Shown here piece after piece: positions 20,188 through 23,616 of a stretch of DNA of 64,000 bases. How positions within the stretch are numbered: position 1 is the first letter of the stretch; every line of letters starts with the position of its first letter. A program made the translations under genes and the position numbers. Source of the stretch: Chloroflexota bacterium (lineage in GTDB: Bacteria; Chloroflexota; Dormibacteria; CF-121); NCBI GenBank assembly GCA_005882775.1, contig VBDY01000122.1, forward strand, positions 9,317-73,316, given 5' to 3'. The notes below the pieces were generated by a model. That model ran no database searches. It saw only the letters and a program-made list of their open reading frames with translations, and was not told the origin of the DNA.

Positions 20188-21675
20188 ATGCCCGCCTTGC
20201 TCCGGACAGGACTCTCTGCCGGCCTCGGGATCAGCCTGGCGCTCGCTGCCCTGTCGCCGGCTCCAGCGCTCGCCGCGGCGGGGCGGCACGAACGGCTCGA
20301 CCGGGAAACCCGCAGCGCGATGAGCGTTGGCGCCGCCGTCGATGTGATCCTGGTTGCCCAGGCAGGCCTGCCCGAGCTCTATGCCGACCTGCGACACGCC
20401 GGCATCAAGCAGGCGGTCCGGGTTCCGATCGCCCACGGGGTTGCAGCCCGGCTTACGGCGTCGCAGGTCAGCTTCTTCGCGAGCGACCCCAGGGTCGACC
20501 GGATCATTTATGACGCCCCGGTGCAGCTCTCCGACACTCCATTCGATCCAGGTGCGCTGGCGAGCCTGTATCCGCAGGTCGTGGACGCGGCGGCCAGCTG
20601 GAGCAATCGCCCGTCGCCGCTGACCGGCAATGGAATCGGGATCGCTGTGATCGATAGCGGAATTGCGGCCCACCCCGACCTGGCCGGTCGGGTCGTCACC
20701 AGCAAGGACTTCAACCCGAATGTCAACGACGCGAGTGACACCTATGGGCATGGCACCGCCGTGGCCGGCATCATCGCGGGCGACGGAACGGCCAGTGGAG
20801 GCGCGTATGTCGGCGTCGCGCCGCGGGCCAGCCTGATCAACATCCGGGTTAACGACGGCACCGGGGCGGCGCCCACGTCCGCCATCATGAACGCCCTGCT
20901 CTGGGCAACCGTCAACCGCAAGACCTACAACATCCGCGTCATCAACCTGTCGCTGCAGGCATCCGTCCAGGAGTCGTATCAAACCAGCCCGCTGGACGCG
21001 GCGGTGGAGTATGCCTGGCTCAAGGGCATCCTGGTGGTCGTTGCCGCCGGCAACAAGGGTCCGAACAGCGAGCTGTACGCGCCCGCGAATGACCCCTATG
21101 TGATCACGGTCGGCGCCACCGATGACCGCGGAACCAGGACCATCGCGGACGACACCCTGGCAGCGTTCTCGAGCTACGGGGTCACCCAGGACGGGTTCTC
21201 AAAGCCCGACCTGGTCGCTCCCGGCCGGCACATCGTGACCACACTTGCGGCCGGAAGTGCCTTCGCCGTCGGTTATCCAGGAAACCTCGTCGGGAGCCGG
21301 TACATCCAGCTCAGCGGATCCTCGATGGCGGCTCCCCAGGTCTCCGGGGTGGCCGCCCTCTACCTCGAGGCGCACCCATCCATCGGACCGTCACAGCTGA
21401 AGGGTGTGCTCCGGGCGACGGCGAATAAACTGGCGCTTCCAGGCATCGGTGCGGGCTACCCGGACGCGGGCCGGGCGATCGCCTACAGGGGGACGTTGGG
21501 CAATGCCAACGCCGGCCTGCAACCGAACAACTACCTGAAAGTCATGTACATGCAAGCCCGGGGCTTCACCACGTTGCCGACGGTGTCGTGGGACAGCGTG
21601 TCCTGGGATAGCGTCTCCTGGGACAGCGTTTCCTGGACCGACATCGCCTGGAACGCAGTGAGCTGGAGCTCATAA
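20188..21675 (+). CDS. Secreted subtilisin-like serine protease (S8) with a C-terminal (V)SWDS pentapeptide repeat tail
   Basis: Signal peptide. Catalytic triad contexts VIDSGI (D), HGTAVAGII (H) and GSSMAAPQVSG (S). The C-terminus is VSWDSVSWDSVSWDSVSWTDIAWNAVSWSS. The ORF-track 940-aa ORF is open upstream only as the antisense of the DUF885 gene. Confidence 0.85.
   Translation: MPALLRTGLSAGLGISLALAALSPAPALAAAGRHERLDRETRSAMSVGAAVDVILVAQAGLPELYADLRHAGIKQAVRVPIAHGVAARLTASQVSFFASDPRVDRIIYDAPVQLSDTPFDPGALASLYPQVVDAAASWSNRPSPLTGNGIGIAVIDSGIAAHPDLAGRVVTSKDFNPNVNDASDTYGHGTAVAGIIAGDGTASGGAYVGVAPRASLINIRVNDGTGAAPTSAIMNALLWATVNRKTYNIRVINLSLQASVQESYQTSPLDAAVEYAWLKGILVVVAAGNKGPNSELYAPANDPYVITVGATDDRGTRTIADDTLAAFSSYGVTQDGFSKPDLVAPGRHIVTTLAAGSAFAVGYPGNLVGSRYIQLSGSSMAAPQVSGVAALYLEAHPSIGPSQLKGVLRATANKLALPGIGAGYPDAGRAIAYRGTLGNANAGLQPNNYLKVMYMQARGFTTLPTVSWDSVSWDSVSWDSVSWTDIAWNAVSWSS
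21585..21660 (+). repeat. Tandem 15-nt coding repeat (4-5 units) encoding VSWDS
   Basis: gtgtcgtgggacagc / gtgtcctgggatagc / gtctcctgggacagc / gtttcctggaccgac ... Confidence 0.6.
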
Positions 21676-21677
21676 CC

Positions 21678-22391
21678 ATGCGCCGGGACCTCCTGCGCAC
21701 GGGCGCCCGCGTCTACCTGGCGGCGGTGCTGTTTAGCGCAGCCCTGACGGCGATCCTGCTTTGGTCTGCGAGCAGCTCGACGGCTTCGCTGGCTCAGTTC
21801 CTCCTGATCACCGGGTTGGGTATGGTGGCCCACAGCTTTCCGGTGCAGGCCTCCCGCCACCAGGCGTACCAGGCGACCCTGCCCTTCATCGTGGTGGCCG
21901 CGGCATCCTTCAGCATCGCCCAGCTGATCGTTTTCATACTTCTGATTCACGCCGCCGAGCAGGCGCGCGTCCGTCGGGTCTGGTACATCCAGGTATTCAA
22001 TGTCGGCGGCTACTTCCTGGCCGCGGCGGTCAGCGGTGTCATCTTCCATCAGGCGATCAGGTTGCTCGCGCCCGGTCTGCTGTCCTCGACCGAGGCCGCA
22101 CTGGCCGCCGGATGCACCTTTGTCCTCCTCAATCGTGCCCTTCTCGCCGGCATCCTCTGGCTGGCACGGAATCTCTCGCCGGCACGCTCCGGGCTGTTCC
22201 GGCCGGAATTGCTGGCCGTCGACCTGATCATCACCTGGATATCGGCGCCGATGCTGGTCCTGACACTGGTCGCAGGTCCCTGGATGACCCTGATCACGGC
22301 CGGCCCGCTCTTCCTCTTCCGACCGGCGCTGGCCTACCTGCTGAGCGACCACGAACACCAGCCAGAACAGCTGCAGGCACCGGCGGCTTAA
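21678..22391 (+). CDS. Polytopic membrane protein, paralog of the N-terminal sensor module of the downstream diguanylate cyclase
   Basis: WYIQVFNVGGYFLAAAVSGVIFHQ and FVLLNRALLAGILWLARN align with WYILAFNVANFSLSALAAAAIFHL and FVLVNHLLTALVIMWARN of the next gene. It starts 3 nt after the protease stop. Confidence 0.6.
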   Translation: MRRDLLRTGARVYLAAVLFSAALTAILLWSASSSTASLAQFLLITGLGMVAHSFPVQASRHQAYQATLPFIVVAAASFSIAQLIVFILLIHAAEQARVRRVWYIQVFNVGGYFLAAAVSGVIFHQAIRLLAPGLLSSTEAALAAGCTFVLLNRALLAGILWLARNLSPARSGLFRPELLAVDLIITWISAPMLVLTLVAGPWMTLITAGPLFLFRPALAYLLSDHEHQPEQLQAPAA

Positions 22392-22398
22392 CGGAGAG

Positions 22399-23616
22399 AT
22401 GCGCGAGCTTCCTCGGAGCGCTCGAATCTACATCACCGGAGTGCTCGCCGTGGCGGCTGTCCTGGCCACCGCGGCCGTCGTGGCCGCGCCGCCTCGTTTG
22501 GCCATGGCTCCGGTAGCGGGTCTGCTTCTACTCAGTGCCAGTGTGGCCCAGCAGTTCAAGGTGAAGAGCCCCAAGCACCAGTCGTACTACACGACGACCA
22601 TCTTCATCTTCAGTGCCGCGCTGCTCCTGCGCCCCGGCTACGTGATCGCCATCATCCTGGTCTCCCACCTGGTAGAGCTGACGCGCCAGCGCTACCGCTG
22701 GTACATCCTGGCCTTCAACGTCGCGAACTTTTCGCTGTCCGCCCTGGCCGCCGCAGCCATCTTCCATCTGCGAAGCCCGTCGCCCGAGTGGAACCCGATC
22801 GGCTACGCCCTGGCGGCAGGCCTGGCCTTTGTCCTCGTCAATCATTTGCTGACCGCTCTGGTGATCATGTGGGCCCGCAACGTCCCGATCGCGCGCGCCG
22901 GGACGCTGGACGTCGACAACCTGGGCACCGACCTGGCATTGATGACCATCGGCGCGCTCGGGTCTCTGTTGTGGCTCACCGACCCCTTAATGGTTCCGCT
23001 CTGCCTGGGTCCGTTATTCCTGATCTACCGGTCGCTGCTGGTGCCGTTCCTCCAGGAGGAGGCCCGAACCGACCCCAAGACCGAGCTGTTCAACATGAAG
23101 CACTGGAATCAGGTTGCCGAGATGGAGATCGACCGCGCCCGCCGGTTCAACCGTCCCCTCAGTGTGCTGCTCGGCGACCTGGACCTGCTGCGCGAAGCCA
23201 ATAACCGGTACGGCCACCTGATGGGGGACCAGCTGATCCGCCGGGTCGCGGAAACCATCCGGGGCGCCCTCCGCGAGTATGACGTCCCCGCCAGGTTTGG
23301 TGGCGATGAGTTCGCCGTCCTGATGCCCGAGGCGAACCTGGACGAGGCTAGCGCTGTTGCCGAGCGTATCCGGCACGCCGTGGAGCTGATCGAGCTCAAG
23401 GCACCGGACGGCGGCCGGCTTTCCGCCTCCCTCAGCGTCGGTGTCGCCCTCTTTCCGGTTCATGGGGGCACGCCATCGACTCTTCTGGCGGCGGCCGACC
23501 GTGCCGTCTATCAGGCGAAGGCGCTGGGGCGCAACCGCGTCTGCGCCTTCCGGGAGCCGGACGACTCTACTTCTTCGGCCGTCGCGTCCGCCGCCGGTCG
23601 CCGTGCGCTCGCATGA
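22399..23616 (+). CDS. Diguanylate cyclase (GGDEF) with N-terminal 6-TM sensor module
   Basis: RFGGDEFAVLMPE GGDEF motif and an RxxD I-site-like region, with an N-terminal membrane domain. Confidence 0.85.
   Translation: MRELPRSARIYITGVLAVAAVLATAAVVAAPPRLAMAPVAGLLLLSASVAQQFKVKSPKHQSYYTTTIFIFSAALLLRPGYVIAIILVSHLVELTRQRYRWYILAFNVANFSLSALAAAAIFHLRSPSPEWNPIGYALAAGLAFVLVNHLLTALVIMWARNVPIARAGTLDVDNLGTDLALMTIGALGSLLWLTDPLMVPLCLGPLFLIYRSLLVPFLQEEARTDPKTELFNMKHWNQVAEMEIDRARRFNRPLSVLLGDLDLLREANNRYGHLMGDQLIRRVAETIRGALREYDVPARFGGDEFAVLMPEANLDEASAVAERIRHAVELIELKAPDGGRLSASLSVGVALFPVHGGTPSTLLAAADRAVYQAKALGRNRVCAFREPDDSTSSAVASAAGRRALA

What the first reader, a model, noticed from the sequence alone, without database searches (positions are those of the whole stretch)
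20188..23616. Operon: secreted S8 protease with SWDS repeat tail, orphan sensor-like membrane module, and GGDEF cyclase carrying the same module
The three genes are separated by 2 and 7 nt.
- The subtilase ends in four to five tandem VSWDS pentapeptides, encoded by a 15-nt DNA repeat. That is an uncommon C-terminal extension and might be a cell-surface or cell-wall-binding tail.
- The middle gene is a clear paralog of the 6-TM N-terminal domain of the downstream diguanylate cyclase but lacks any output domain.

One reading is a protease-coupled c-di-GMP signalling unit in which a decoy or partner membrane module modulates the DGC. An HD-GYP phosphodiesterase with a different membrane sensor sits at 48322.
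Basis: seen in the sequence. Interest (0 to 1): 0.5.

Follow-up and report, generated by a model that had tools for sequence, protein, structure and literature searches.

The report
Trp-tailed protease paired with membrane sensor
A secreted protease ending in a run of tryptophan-centred five-residue repeats is encoded, here and in distantly related soil bacteria, directly in front of one particular membrane sensor module; this may be the first clue to what that sensor family detects, and the pairing does not appear in the searched literature.

Summary
Three co-directional genes, with gaps of 2 and 7 nt, encode:
- an S8 subtilase ending in six Trp-centred pentapeptides (three exact VSWDS, three degenerate);
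- a 237-aa membrane protein with no output domain;
- a GGDEF cyclase whose N-terminal half is its paralogue (38% identity, E 3e-21).

The trio is colinear in every Candidatus Dormibacterota locus long enough to show all three genes (18 species representatives plus 4 other MAG or metagenome contigs).

I picked seven distant homologues of the membrane module (about 30% identity). Six are directly preceded by an S8, and every S8 C-terminus I could read carries W-every-5th-residue repeats (ASWTS, ASWSS, ASWTT, VSWDT, VLWRS; 4 to about 15 units). The output after the module varies: none, GGDEF, GGDEF–HD-GYP or histidine kinase.

Best reading, which is inferred and not shown: the exported protease's Trp tail, either tethered or cut into peptides, is the ligand of the module. 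Here that would make c-di-GMP synthesis report on the cell's own exoprotease. The output-less copy would act as a docking or partner subunit.

The parts
20158..21675 (+). Pre-pro-subtilase (S8) gene.
   Evidence: ORF. Pfam Peptidase_S8 at 171.7 bits, with a weak Inhibitor_I9 match. The N-terminal extension MIQMLSTCHR aligns with orthologue N-termini. In the 505-aa numbering, catalytic D166, H198 and S389 and oxyanion N299 are all invariant columns in 51 orthologues.
20158..20274 (+). Predicted Sec signal peptide, about residues 1-39, ending ...PALA|AAG.
   Evidence: Read directly from the sequence: a basic n-region, a hydrophobic core and an A-x-A site. No predictor was run, so this is an inference.
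21583..21672 (+). C-terminal tail of six Trp-centred pentapeptides: VSWDS x3, then VSWTD, IAWNA, VSWSS.
   Evidence: Tandem Repeats Finder period 15. Six units in 108 of 120 orthologue clusters. W is invariant in 22 loci, and unit 6 uses an AGY Ser codon (AGC, once AGT) whereas units 1-5 mostly use TCN. Analogous W-pentad tails occur on distant S8s.
21678..22391 (+). Stand-alone MASE9-related membrane module: 237 aa, 8 helices, no output domain.
22399..23088 (+). Paralogous membrane module forming the N-terminal half of the cyclase.
   Evidence: BLASTP 38% identity, E 3e-21 against the stand-alone protein. Scores 95.9 bits against the stand-alone family profile over residues 1-230. Orthologue alignments begin at residue 1, which supports the ATG at 22399 over the later start used by gene callers.
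23065..23538 (+). GGDEF catalytic domain. The GGDEF motif is at 23299..23313 and the RxxD I-site (REYD) at 23272..23283.
   Evidence: Pfam GGDEF 130.2 bits over residues 223-380. TIGR00254 at 155 bits. Motif positions.
22399..23616 (+). Complete module-GGDEF diguanylate cyclase gene.

Best explanation
The three genes form one operon built around an old two-part cassette.
- Part 1 is a Sec-exported S8 subtilase whose C-terminus is a run of pentapeptides with Trp at every fifth residue ([VA][SL]W-x-x).
- Part 2, translationally coupled to it, is a gene that begins with a MASE9-related membrane module of 8 helices with very short outer loops. Its predicted fold matches the small-ligand-binding S-components of ECF transporters.

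The module is a sensory input domain. In relatives it feeds GGDEF, HD-GYP or histidine-kinase outputs.

The window's organism (Candidatus Dormibacterota) keeps an output-less copy next to the protease. A second, paralogous copy is fused to a cyclase with an intact GGDEF motif and I-site.

Proposed mechanism:
- The protease is exported.
- Its Trp-rich tail partitions to the outer membrane interface. There it is bound by the module(s), either while still attached to the enzyme or after being cut off.
- Occupancy is relayed to the cytoplasmic GGDEF domain, so c-di-GMP production reports the presence or activity of the cell's own exoprotease.
- A multivalent tail could also bring module-GGDEF monomers together, which the cyclase needs for catalysis.
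- The output-less module would be a docking or heteromeric partner that tunes this.

Shown: gene structure, paralogy, conservation, the protease-module association, sensor-type domain architectures, and the predicted fold.
Inferred: tail-module binding, the direction of signalling, and the role of the stand-alone copy.
For: 1. Operon. Gaps are 2 and 7 nt. The same order and tight spacing occur in all 22 Dormibacterota loci long enough to show it, although the upstream flank varies (DUF885 is present in some and absent in others).

2. Association beyond the phylum.
- Seven distant module-bearing proteins were chosen by rank or by position in the tree. Six have an S8 gene immediately upstream: P0288, P0365, P0263, P0384, P0250 and P0281. 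P0249 does not.
- The six further metagenome loci whose upstream region can be read show the same.
- Every S8 C-terminus I could read has W at spacing 5: (ASWTS) about 13-15 units, (ASWSS) about 10, (ASWTT) 11, (VSWDT) 10, and (VLWRS) 3 plus 1.

3. The output varies while the pair stays constant. Observed outputs are none (L031-L034), GGDEF-MASE9-HD-GYP (L036), PAS-HK-REC (L041), GGDEF-MASE9-HK (L042) and GGDEF-HD-GYP (L043).

4. Protease, tail type and module group together. The window S8 is closest to the L042 S8 (54% identity), which has a VSWDT tail. L031, L033 and L041 group with each other.

5. The module is a promiscuous sensor domain. Of 91 profile hits, 48 carry GGDEF, 19 carry HATPase_c and 16 carry HD_5.

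6. The module is homologous to MASE9. For MASE9, ligand binding within the membrane was proposed.

8. The tail is under protein-level selection. It has six units in 108 of 120 clusters, and W is invariant in the 22 loci compared. Among 231 locus pairs there are 1614 synonymous and 1338 non-synonymous codon differences, the latter mostly at unit positions 4-5. Unit 6 keeps its own Ser codon family.

9. The stand-alone protein is constrained: mean pairwise identity 0.60, with 29 invariant residues.
Against: - No direct evidence shows that the tail contacts the module. The association could be between the S8 subfamily and the module, with the tail merely a trait of that subfamily.
- The module's outer loops are only 3-8 residues long. 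Most invariant polar residues (H61, H91, E94, R97, R100, R164, E177) lie on the predicted cytoplasmic side. This comes plus positive-inside reasoning.
- The S8 structure prediction failed (pLDDT 46), so the conformation of the tail is unknown.
- One relative (P0249) has no S8 upstream.
- Loci L033-L039 were retrieved by similarity to members already known to be S8-linked, so they are not independent samples.
- The taxa of the distant loci are unknown.
Confidence: 0.5

Rival explanations
1. Released-peptide signalling. The S8 trims its own tail into Trp-containing pentapeptides. These act as diffusible autoinducers sensed in the S-component-like pocket of the module. Signal production would then be coupled one-to-one to exoprotease secretion and activity. 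This is a variant of the best explanation in which the ligand is free rather than tethered.
For: - Outside Dormibacterota the units are nearly identical and the copy number varies from 8 to about 15, as in multi-copy precursor peptides.
- The unit sequence differs between lineages, as peptide pherotypes do.
- S-component folds bind small, often aromatic, ligands (PMC11109136).
- From general knowledge: S8 proteases mature the Bacillus Phr pentapeptides and cyanobactin cassettes.
Against: - In Dormibacterota the number of units is fixed at six. Units 4-6 have their own conserved variants (VSWDA, VSWS[SN]) and unit 6 its own Ser codon family. That fits a fixed structural element better than interchangeable cassettes.
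- The cleavage specificity of this S8 is unknown.
- No peptide exporter or importer is encoded in the operon.
Confidence: 0.2
2. Regulator-and-target arrangement. The module senses an envelope or membrane state unrelated to the tail. Its output controls expression or use of the adjacent protease, as in secretion-stress systems encoded next to their protease genes. The Trp tail would be only a membrane or cell-wall anchor for the enzyme.
For: - In the P0263 locus a REC-Trans_reg_C response regulator sits directly upstream of the S8 and the module-GGDEF-HK gene.
- In L033 a hybrid kinase and a REC-HD-GYP precede the S8.
- The module's conserved residues are mostly on the cytoplasmic half.
- From general knowledge: Trp-rich segments favour membrane interfaces.
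Against: - It does not explain why this one module family, whatever its output and even with none, is tied to this one S8 subfamily across lineages.
- It does not explain why an output-less module is kept under selection next to the protease where no cyclase is adjacent (L032, L033).
Confidence: 0.17
3. Transport. The stand-alone 237-aa protein is a genuine S-component-type transporter that takes up a product released by the protease, such as Trp or Trp-peptides. It would not be a signalling partner.
For: - The protein has no output domain.
- An A-x-x-x-A pattern can be read in helix 1.
Against: - There is no Pfam or NCBIfam match to any S-component family.
- All detectable sequence relatives are input domains of signalling proteins.
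- No EcfT or EcfA genes lie in the operon or in the conserved flanks.
- A-x-x-x-A is expected by chance in Ala-rich helices.
Confidence: 0.05
4. Sorting system. The Trp-pentad tail is a C-terminal sorting or anchoring signal, and the polytopic membrane protein is its dedicated processing enzyme, as with exosortase, rhombosortase or archaeosortase and their cognate tails.
For: A distinctive C-terminal tail is encoded next to a dedicated multi-pass membrane protein. Invariant His, Glu and Arg residues in the membrane protein could in principle be catalytic.
Against: - The tail lacks the hydrophobic helix and basic cluster of known sorting signals (direct reading).
- The module is fused to GGDEF, HK or HD-GYP outputs in most relatives, which marks it as a sensor rather than an enzyme.
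- The tail was seen only on S8 proteases, whereas sorting signals typically mark many different proteins.
Confidence: 0.04
5. No functional link. The arrangement reflects only conserved synteny within one phylum.
For: Within Dormibacterota the wider neighbourhood is also colinear: RDD/VTT, S8, module, GGDEF, DUF2269, GNAT and an SMC-like gene.
Against: The S8-module pair recurs with entirely different flanking genes and different outputs, at about 30-40% protein identity. Gaps of 2-12 nt, or overlaps, are retained.
Confidence: 0.03

Closest known systems
MASE9 (Pfam PF20972), the membrane-associated sensor domain of HD-GYP and GGDEF proteins (Galperin and Chou, bioRxiv 10.1101/2021.11.05.467447)
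   Same: - Eight hydrophobic segments, two of them short and forming a hairpin, with very short outer loops.
- A promiscuous N-terminal input domain for HD-GYP, GGDEF and other outputs.
- The stand-alone family profile matches the Pfam-MASE9 domain inside dual-module proteins.
   Different: - The window's two copies fall below the Pfam gathering score: no hit for the stand-alone protein, and 16.1 bits against a cutoff of 24.3 for the cyclase N-terminus.
- This subfamily is tied to an upstream S8 protease, which the MASE9 description does not mention.
- An output-less stand-alone form is conserved.
S-component fold of ECF transporters and the 5TMR-LYT sensor kinases ('transceptors'; Partipilo and Slotboom 2024, PMC11109136)
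   Different: - No sequence match to S-component families or to 5TMR-LYT.
- Two extra helices.
- No ECF energising genes nearby.
- That paper covers 5TMR-LYT and does not mention MASE domains.
LapD-LapG and YfiBNR: c-di-GMP modules coupled to an extracytoplasmic protein partner
   Same: In both, a membrane c-di-GMP signalling protein is functionally coupled to a periplasmic protease (LapG) or a periplasmic repressor protein (YfiR) encoded beside it. This is from general knowledge.
   Different: - The components are unrelated. Here there is no C93 LapG peptidase, no HAMP-GGDEF-EAL receptor and no YfiR.
- The protease here is an S8 with a repeat tail.
- The inferred signalling direction is outside-in, towards a cyclase.
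Peptide signalling matured by subtilases (Bacillus Phr pentapeptides; cyanobactin PatA/PatG cassettes)
   Same: Tandem short peptide units are encoded in cis, or close to, an S8 protease, with a dedicated receptor. This is from general knowledge. The NCBIfam PatA match (E 6.8e-13) reflects only general S8 similarity.
   Different: - Here the repeats are part of the protease itself.
- The receptors are membrane modules with c-di-GMP or kinase outputs.
- No release of peptides has been shown.
Mycosin (type VII secretion-associated S8, TIGR03921)
   Same: It is the best-scoring NCBIfam model for the catalytic domain (177.1 bits).
   Different: - The score is below the family cutoff of 278.75 bits.
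- There is no C-terminal transmembrane anchor.
- No ESX genes were seen in the flanks.

Membership tests
Peptidase S8 (subtilase) | Pfam PF00082 match above the gathering score | tested here: met
   171.7 bits against a cutoff of 21.8.
Peptidase S8 (subtilase) | Catalytic Asp-His-Ser triad and oxyanion Asn | tested here: met
   D166 (VIDSG), H198 (HGTAVAG), S389 (SGSSMAAP) and N299 (AAGNKG). All four are invariant columns in 51 orthologues.
Peptidase S8 (subtilase) | Export signal and I9-type propeptide of secreted subtilases | tested here: inconclusive
   The signal peptide was read by eye only. Inhibitor_I9 scores 14.7 bits against a cutoff of 21.2.
GGDEF diguanylate cyclase | Pfam PF00990 or TIGR00254 match above the cutoff | tested here: met
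   130.2 bits against 23.8, and 155 bits against 37.4.
GGDEF diguanylate cyclase | Intact GG[DE]EF active-site motif, and an RxxD I-site five residues upstream | tested here: met
   GGDEF at residue 301 and REYD at residue 292. Enzyme activity itself was not tested.
MASE9 (PF20972) | Pfam match above the gathering score (24.3 bits) | tested here: not met
   - Stand-alone protein: no hit.
- Cyclase N-terminus: 16.1 bits.
- Among orthologues of the stand-alone protein, 32 of 54 give weak hits, best E 8e-07.
MASE9 (PF20972) | Homology to bona fide MASE9 domains at profile level | tested here: met
   The stand-alone family profile matches the second membrane domain of dual-module proteins (P0258 63 bits, P0322 29 bits, P0250 17 bits). 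In P0250, and in the L035 protein, that second domain is the one Pfam matches to MASE9 (27.3 bits, above the cutoff, and 23.9 bits, just below it). Pfam was not run on the second domains of P0258 and P0322 individually.
MASE9 (PF20972) | Eight hydrophobic segments, two of them short and forming an intramembrane hairpin; short periplasmic loops | tested here: met
   The AF2 model has helices 8-29, 38-53, 68-77, 80-98, 102-129, 134-164, 176-199 and 203-222, with outer loops of about 3-8 residues. This rests on a prediction only.
MASE9 (PF20972) | Input domain of c-di-GMP or other signalling outputs | tested here: met
   GGDEF in 48, HATPase_c in 19 and HD_5 in 16 of 91 relatives.
ECF-transporter S-component | S-component fold | tested here: met
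ECF-transporter S-component | Sequence membership of an S-component family, and a cognate EcfT/EcfA module | tested here: not met
   No Pfam or NCBIfam hit. No ECF genes in the operon or conserved flanks. The rest of the genome was not examined.
Mycosin (TIGR03921) | Equivalog score cutoff and a C-terminal membrane anchor | tested here: not met
   177.1 bits against a cutoff of 278.75. The tail is polar and Trp-rich, not a transmembrane helix (direct reading).
Pentapeptide-repeat proteins (PF00805) | Pfam match to A(D/N)LXX repeats that form a quadrilateral beta-helix | tested here: not met
   No Pentapeptide hit at E up to 1 on the S8. The tail could not be modelled.
5TMR-LYT sensor domain (PF07694) | Pfam match | tested here: not met
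   Not among the hits at E up to 1.

The most novel reading that the evidence does not exclude
The Trp-pentad tail of the co-encoded subtilase, either as a multivalent tethered ligand or as released pentapeptides, is the cognate ligand of this MASE9-related, S-component-fold module. That would be the first ligand assigned to a MASE9-type domain. It would also define a new kind of self-reporting exoenzyme circuit, in which a secreted protease carries the signal that tells the cell, through c-di-GMP or a histidine kinase, that its enzyme is present and active outside.
Probability: 0.4. Interest if true: 0.85.

Novelty: new variant of a known kind. Interest (0 to 1): 0.68.

Why it matters
- **A lead on an unknown ligand.** Most membrane-embedded sensor domains of c-di-GMP enzymes and histidine kinases (the MASE families) have no known ligand. 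A partner protein that stays genetically linked while the output domain changes is one of the strongest comparative clues to what a sensor detects. It also makes the question directly testable with three small genes.
- **An unusual protein feature gets a context.** The tail has W at every fifth residue in 4 to about 15 units. It now has a defined genomic context and a candidate function.
- **The S-component fold may extend to a second sensor family.** The predicted fold adds a MASE-type domain to the recently recognised link between ECF S-components and receptors.
- **Signalling biology for an uncultured phylum.** The finding gives a concrete signalling circuit for Candidatus Dormibacterota, an abundant soil phylum with no cultured members.

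Tried and rejected
- **Tail-only protein search.** A search of the 5.8-billion-protein set with an ASWTS-type tail returned nothing, because no candidate shared indexed words. The distribution of the tail on non-S8 proteins is therefore still unknown, and one capped search was lost.
- **Tail against solved structures.** A PDB sequence search with the tail found no match at E up to 10.
- **AF2 of the full S8.** With 51 orthologues the model reached only pLDDT 46 and is unusable, so nothing is concluded about how the tail folds.
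- **Genome scan with the stand-alone alignment.** The GTDB scan retrieved only Dormibacterota orthologues, so taxa for the distant loci could not be assigned.
- **Cluster look-up of the distant proteins.** None carried an organism name.
- **RNA and signal scans.**
  - Rfam found no family in the window, so there is no c-di-GMP riboswitch.
  - The promoter and terminator scan found no promoter-like site, and its single terminator-like hit is within the number expected from shuffles.
- **Plasmid search.** tblastn with a mainstream module found no match.
- **Literature searches.** The repeat strings found no paper. No paper combined MASE, c-di-GMP and subtilisin, or Dormibacterota and diguanylate cyclase.
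- **Recent tandem duplication of the module: rejected.** The adjacent cyclase module ranks 13th of 96 for the stand-alone protein, and the stand-alone protein ranks 60th of 97 for the cyclase module.
- **Pentapeptide-repeat beta-helix membership: rejected.** There is no Pfam hit.

Full report
**1. Observation**

The region holds three co-directional ORFs:
- an S8 subtilase at 20188..21675;
- a 237-aa membrane protein at 21678..22391;
- a 405-aa GGDEF protein at 22399..23616.

Two start codons need comment.
- The subtilase more likely starts at the ATG at 20158. The extra residues MIQMLSTCHR align with the N-termini of orthologues (MRQPSSPRH..., MFQQSSARH...).
- Gene callers on identical metagenome contigs start the cyclase 17 codons later (388 aa). 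However, tblastn alignments to the cyclase in every Dormibacterota locus that holds the gene begin at residue 1, and the N-terminus parallels that of the middle protein. This supports 22399.

Tandem Repeats Finder reports a 15-nt period with 3.6 copies at 21583..21636. The encoded tail is VSWDS-VSWDS-VSWDS-VSWTD-IAWNA-VSWSS. That is six pentapeptides with Trp at every fifth residue, three of them exact. No other frame of the window has such a run.

**2. The parts**

*Subtilase.*
- It matches Peptidase_S8 at 171.7 bits, with a weak I9 propeptide signal.
- D166, H198, S389 and N299 are invariant in 51 orthologues.
- A Sec-type signal peptide can be read by eye.
- The best NCBIfam model is mycosin, but below its cutoff (177 against 279 bits). 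The closest solved relative is an archaeal subtilisin-like protease (3afg).

*Cyclase.*
- It has a full GGDEF domain (130 and 155 bits).
- The GGDEF motif is intact and an RxxD I-site sits at the canonical distance.

*Middle protein.*
- It has no Pfam or NCBIfam hit.
- It aligns with the cyclase N-terminus at 38% identity over 164 residues (E 3e-21). The paralogy is real.

**3. Conservation within the phylum**

- The middle protein has more than 120 orthologue clusters of about 237 aa. Sources name them Candidatus Dormibacteraeota or 'Chloroflexi bacterium' MAGs.
- All 18 species-representative genome loci with enough sequence, plus four other MAG or metagenome contigs, show S8, then module, then module-GGDEF, in the same order with tight spacing.
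- The wider neighbourhood is also syntenic, but the upstream flank varies: DUF885 is present in some loci and absent in others.
- Across 22 loci the mean pairwise identity is 0.60 for the stand-alone module, 0.68 for the cyclase's module and 0.73 for its catalytic part. The stand-alone copy therefore evolves somewhat faster but is clearly constrained, with 29 invariant residues including H52, H61, H91, E94, R97, R100, N108, N152, W161, R164, E177 and D182.

**4. The tail in this phylum is a fixed element, not a slippage array**

- 108 of 120 S8 orthologue clusters have exactly six units. The remainder have 4, 5 or 7 units, or are truncated fragments.
- In 22 loci W is invariant, position 1 is V, I or L, and position 2 is mostly S or A. 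Positions 4-5 vary.
- Unit 6 uses an AGY Ser codon (AGC, once AGT) in the 20 loci where its second residue is Ser, whereas units 1-5 mostly use TCN. The units are therefore old and individually inherited.

**5. What the membrane module is**

*Distribution and architectures.*
- A profile of the stand-alone family found 444 cluster representatives among 1.84 billion proteins.
- Of 91 that I scanned, 48 carry GGDEF, 19 carry HATPase_c or HisKA, and 16 carry HD-GYP-type HD_5, along with PAS, GAF, EAL and REC domains.
- This is the signature of a promiscuous sensory input domain.

*Relation to MASE9.*
- Pfam MASE9 gives weak hits in 32 of 54 orthologues, best E 8e-07.
- The profile also matches the second membrane domain of dual-module proteins. 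In P0250 and in the L035 protein, that second domain is the one Pfam matches to MASE9 (27.3 bits, above the cutoff, and 23.9 bits, just below it).
- The module is therefore a divergent MASE9 relative.
- MASE9 was described as having eight hydrophobic segments with an intramembrane hairpin, short periplasmic loops, and probable ligand binding within the membrane. No ligand is known.

*Predicted structure.*
- The AF2 model (pLDDT 85.8, pTM 0.85) has eight helices that fit that description, plus a beta-hairpin at 56-64.
- A shared fold between S-components and the membrane domains of 5TMR-LYT sensor kinases has been published (PMC11109136). That paper does not mention MASE domains.

**6. The key new result: the conserved core is protease plus module**

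I looked up the genomic context of seven distant module proteins, chosen by rank or by position in the tree. They share about 30% identity with the window protein. Six have an S8 gene directly upstream.

| Protein (locus) | Upstream S8 and tail | Module gene |
|---|---|---|
| P0288 (L031) | S8-(ASWTS), about 13-15 units | stand-alone module |
| P0365 (L032) | S8 with ASWTS/ASWSS tail | stand-alone module; no cyclase nearby |
| P0263 | S8 preceded by REC-Trans_reg_C; tail not readable | module-GGDEF-HK |
| P0384 (L041) | S8-(ASWTT), 11 units | module-PAS-HK-REC |
| P0250 (L042) | S8-(VSWDT), 10 units | module-GGDEF-MASE9-HK |
| P0281 (L043) | S8 ending SVLWRSVLWRSVLWRSVEEAVLWRN | module-GGDEF-HD-GYP, 13-nt overlap |
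| P0249 (L040) | none; a TPP enzyme lies upstream | module-GGDEF |

A metagenome scan added seven loci (L033-L039).
- Six have a W-pentad ORF directly upstream of the module gene.
- L033 reads PAS-HK-REC, then REC-HD-GYP, then S8-(ASWTS) about 14 units, then a stand-alone module.
- L036 reads S8-(ASWSS) about 10 units, then module-GGDEF-MASE9-HD-GYP.

Further points:
- The S8s share 34-54% identity across these lineages.
- Protease similarity, tail type and module similarity group together.
- The flanking genes differ completely between lineages, so this cannot be residual synteny.

**7. Relation between the two modules in the window**

- The stand-alone protein is a long-branch member. Its best non-orthologous hits are about 34% identical (95 bits), and the adjacent cyclase's module ranks 13th of 96.
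- The cyclase's module is 'mainstream': 42% identity to P0297 and 36.5% to the S8-linked P0281.
- The two are therefore old paralogues, not a recent duplication.
- Many relatives carry two modules in one polypeptide (module-GGDEF-MASE9-output). Two modules per system is thus a recurring theme. In Dormibacterota the two modules are on separate polypeptides.

**8. Mechanism**

What is shown:
- an operon;
- a secreted-type active-site-intact subtilase with a selected Trp-pentad tail;
- a sensor-type membrane module with a small-ligand-binding predicted fold;
- an intact cyclase;
- a lineage-spanning protease-module linkage that does not depend on the output domain.

What is inferred:
- The tail is Trp-rich and otherwise polar, so it should favour the membrane interface. 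The module or modules would bind it at the outer face.
- Occupancy would control the cytoplasmic output, here c-di-GMP synthesis.
- A multivalent tail could also promote the dimerisation that GGDEF domains need.
- The stand-alone copy would act as a docking or heteromeric partner.

The main rivals:
- The tail is cut into diffusible pentapeptides. This is favoured by the homogeneous, variable-number arrays outside Dormibacterota and disfavoured by the fixed six-unit array here.
- The module senses something else and merely regulates its neighbouring protease.

Points against tail binding:
- The outer loops are tiny.
- Most invariant polar residues lie in the predicted cytoplasmic half.
- The tail structure could not be modelled.

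**9. Comparison with known systems, and novelty**

- The parts belong to known families: S8, GGDEF, and a MASE9 relative with an S-component fold.
- What I could not find in Pfam, NCBIfam or the searched literature is the Trp-pentad tail itself, or its linkage to a MASE-type module.
- Functionally the nearest analogues are c-di-GMP modules with a dedicated extracytoplasmic protein partner (LapD-LapG, YfiBNR) and subtilase-matured peptide signals (Phr, cyanobactins). The components and the inferred logic differ.
- I rate it a new variant of a known kind. A substantial minority reading (about 0.4) would make it the first ligand-receptor pair for a MASE9-type domain.

**10. Limits**

- The taxa of the distant loci are unknown (GC 65-70%; those whose sample origin I could recognise are soil metagenomes).
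- Loci L033-L039 are not independent samples.
- The tail-only database search failed, so I cannot say whether the tail occurs on proteins other than S8s.
- All structural statements rest on one predicted model.

Noticed in passing
window 24990..26009 (+): An IS110-family transposase (DEDD_Tnp_IS110 plus Transposase_20) sits between the GNAT gene and the large SMC-like gene. The orthologous loci L004-L010 have only small unannotated ORFs at that position (87-116 aa), so this looks like a strain-specific insertion.
   Followed up: partly
window 48322..49578 (+): An HD-GYP phosphodiesterase (HD_5, 142 bits). Its N-terminal membrane domain matches 6TM_PilS at the gathering threshold (27.2 against 27 bits). 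The module profile does not match it. It is therefore a second c-di-GMP enzyme with an unrelated sensor.
   Followed up: partly
window 23567..23860 (-): A 97-aa ORF on the opposite strand overlaps the last 50 nt of the cyclase gene. Gene callers also call an ORF of 96-131 aa at the same position in orthologous loci. It has no Pfam match.
   Followed up: no
L036 1173..3986; L035 3..2930; L042 654..3779: Long relatives carry two homologous membrane modules in one polypeptide: N-terminal module, GGDEF, Pfam-MASE9 domain, then HD-GYP or histidine kinase. These look like fusions of a cyclase unit and a phosphodiesterase or kinase unit, each with its own sensor.
   Followed up: partly
L033 4004..5986 and L034 1..1296: In these S8s the ASWTS array is followed by a further 25-50 residues. 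They include D-L-N-G-D-G-[FS]-I-G, a motif that resembles calcium-binding dockerin or EF-hand loops. That resemblance is from memory and was not tested.
   Followed up: no
L041 2..1354: This S8 has an extra segment of about 200 residues, rich in Thr, Gly and Ala (...TVNGNLGLSPGTSVTGFGPG...), inserted between the catalytic domain and the ASWTT tail. Its identity was not tested.
   Followed up: no
window 26264..29986 (-): A very large ORF (1240 aa in stop-to-start terms). Its orthologues are about 1070 aa and match AAA_23, AAA_27 and SMC_N. It is conserved downstream of the operon throughout the phylum.
   Followed up: no
window 18475..20067 (-) and 17347..18450 (-): DUF885 (261.7 bits) and a fused VTT-RDD membrane protein lie divergently upstream of the operon. 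DUF885 is missing in some orthologous loci (L006, L010), which marks the 5' boundary of the conserved unit.
   Followed up: partly
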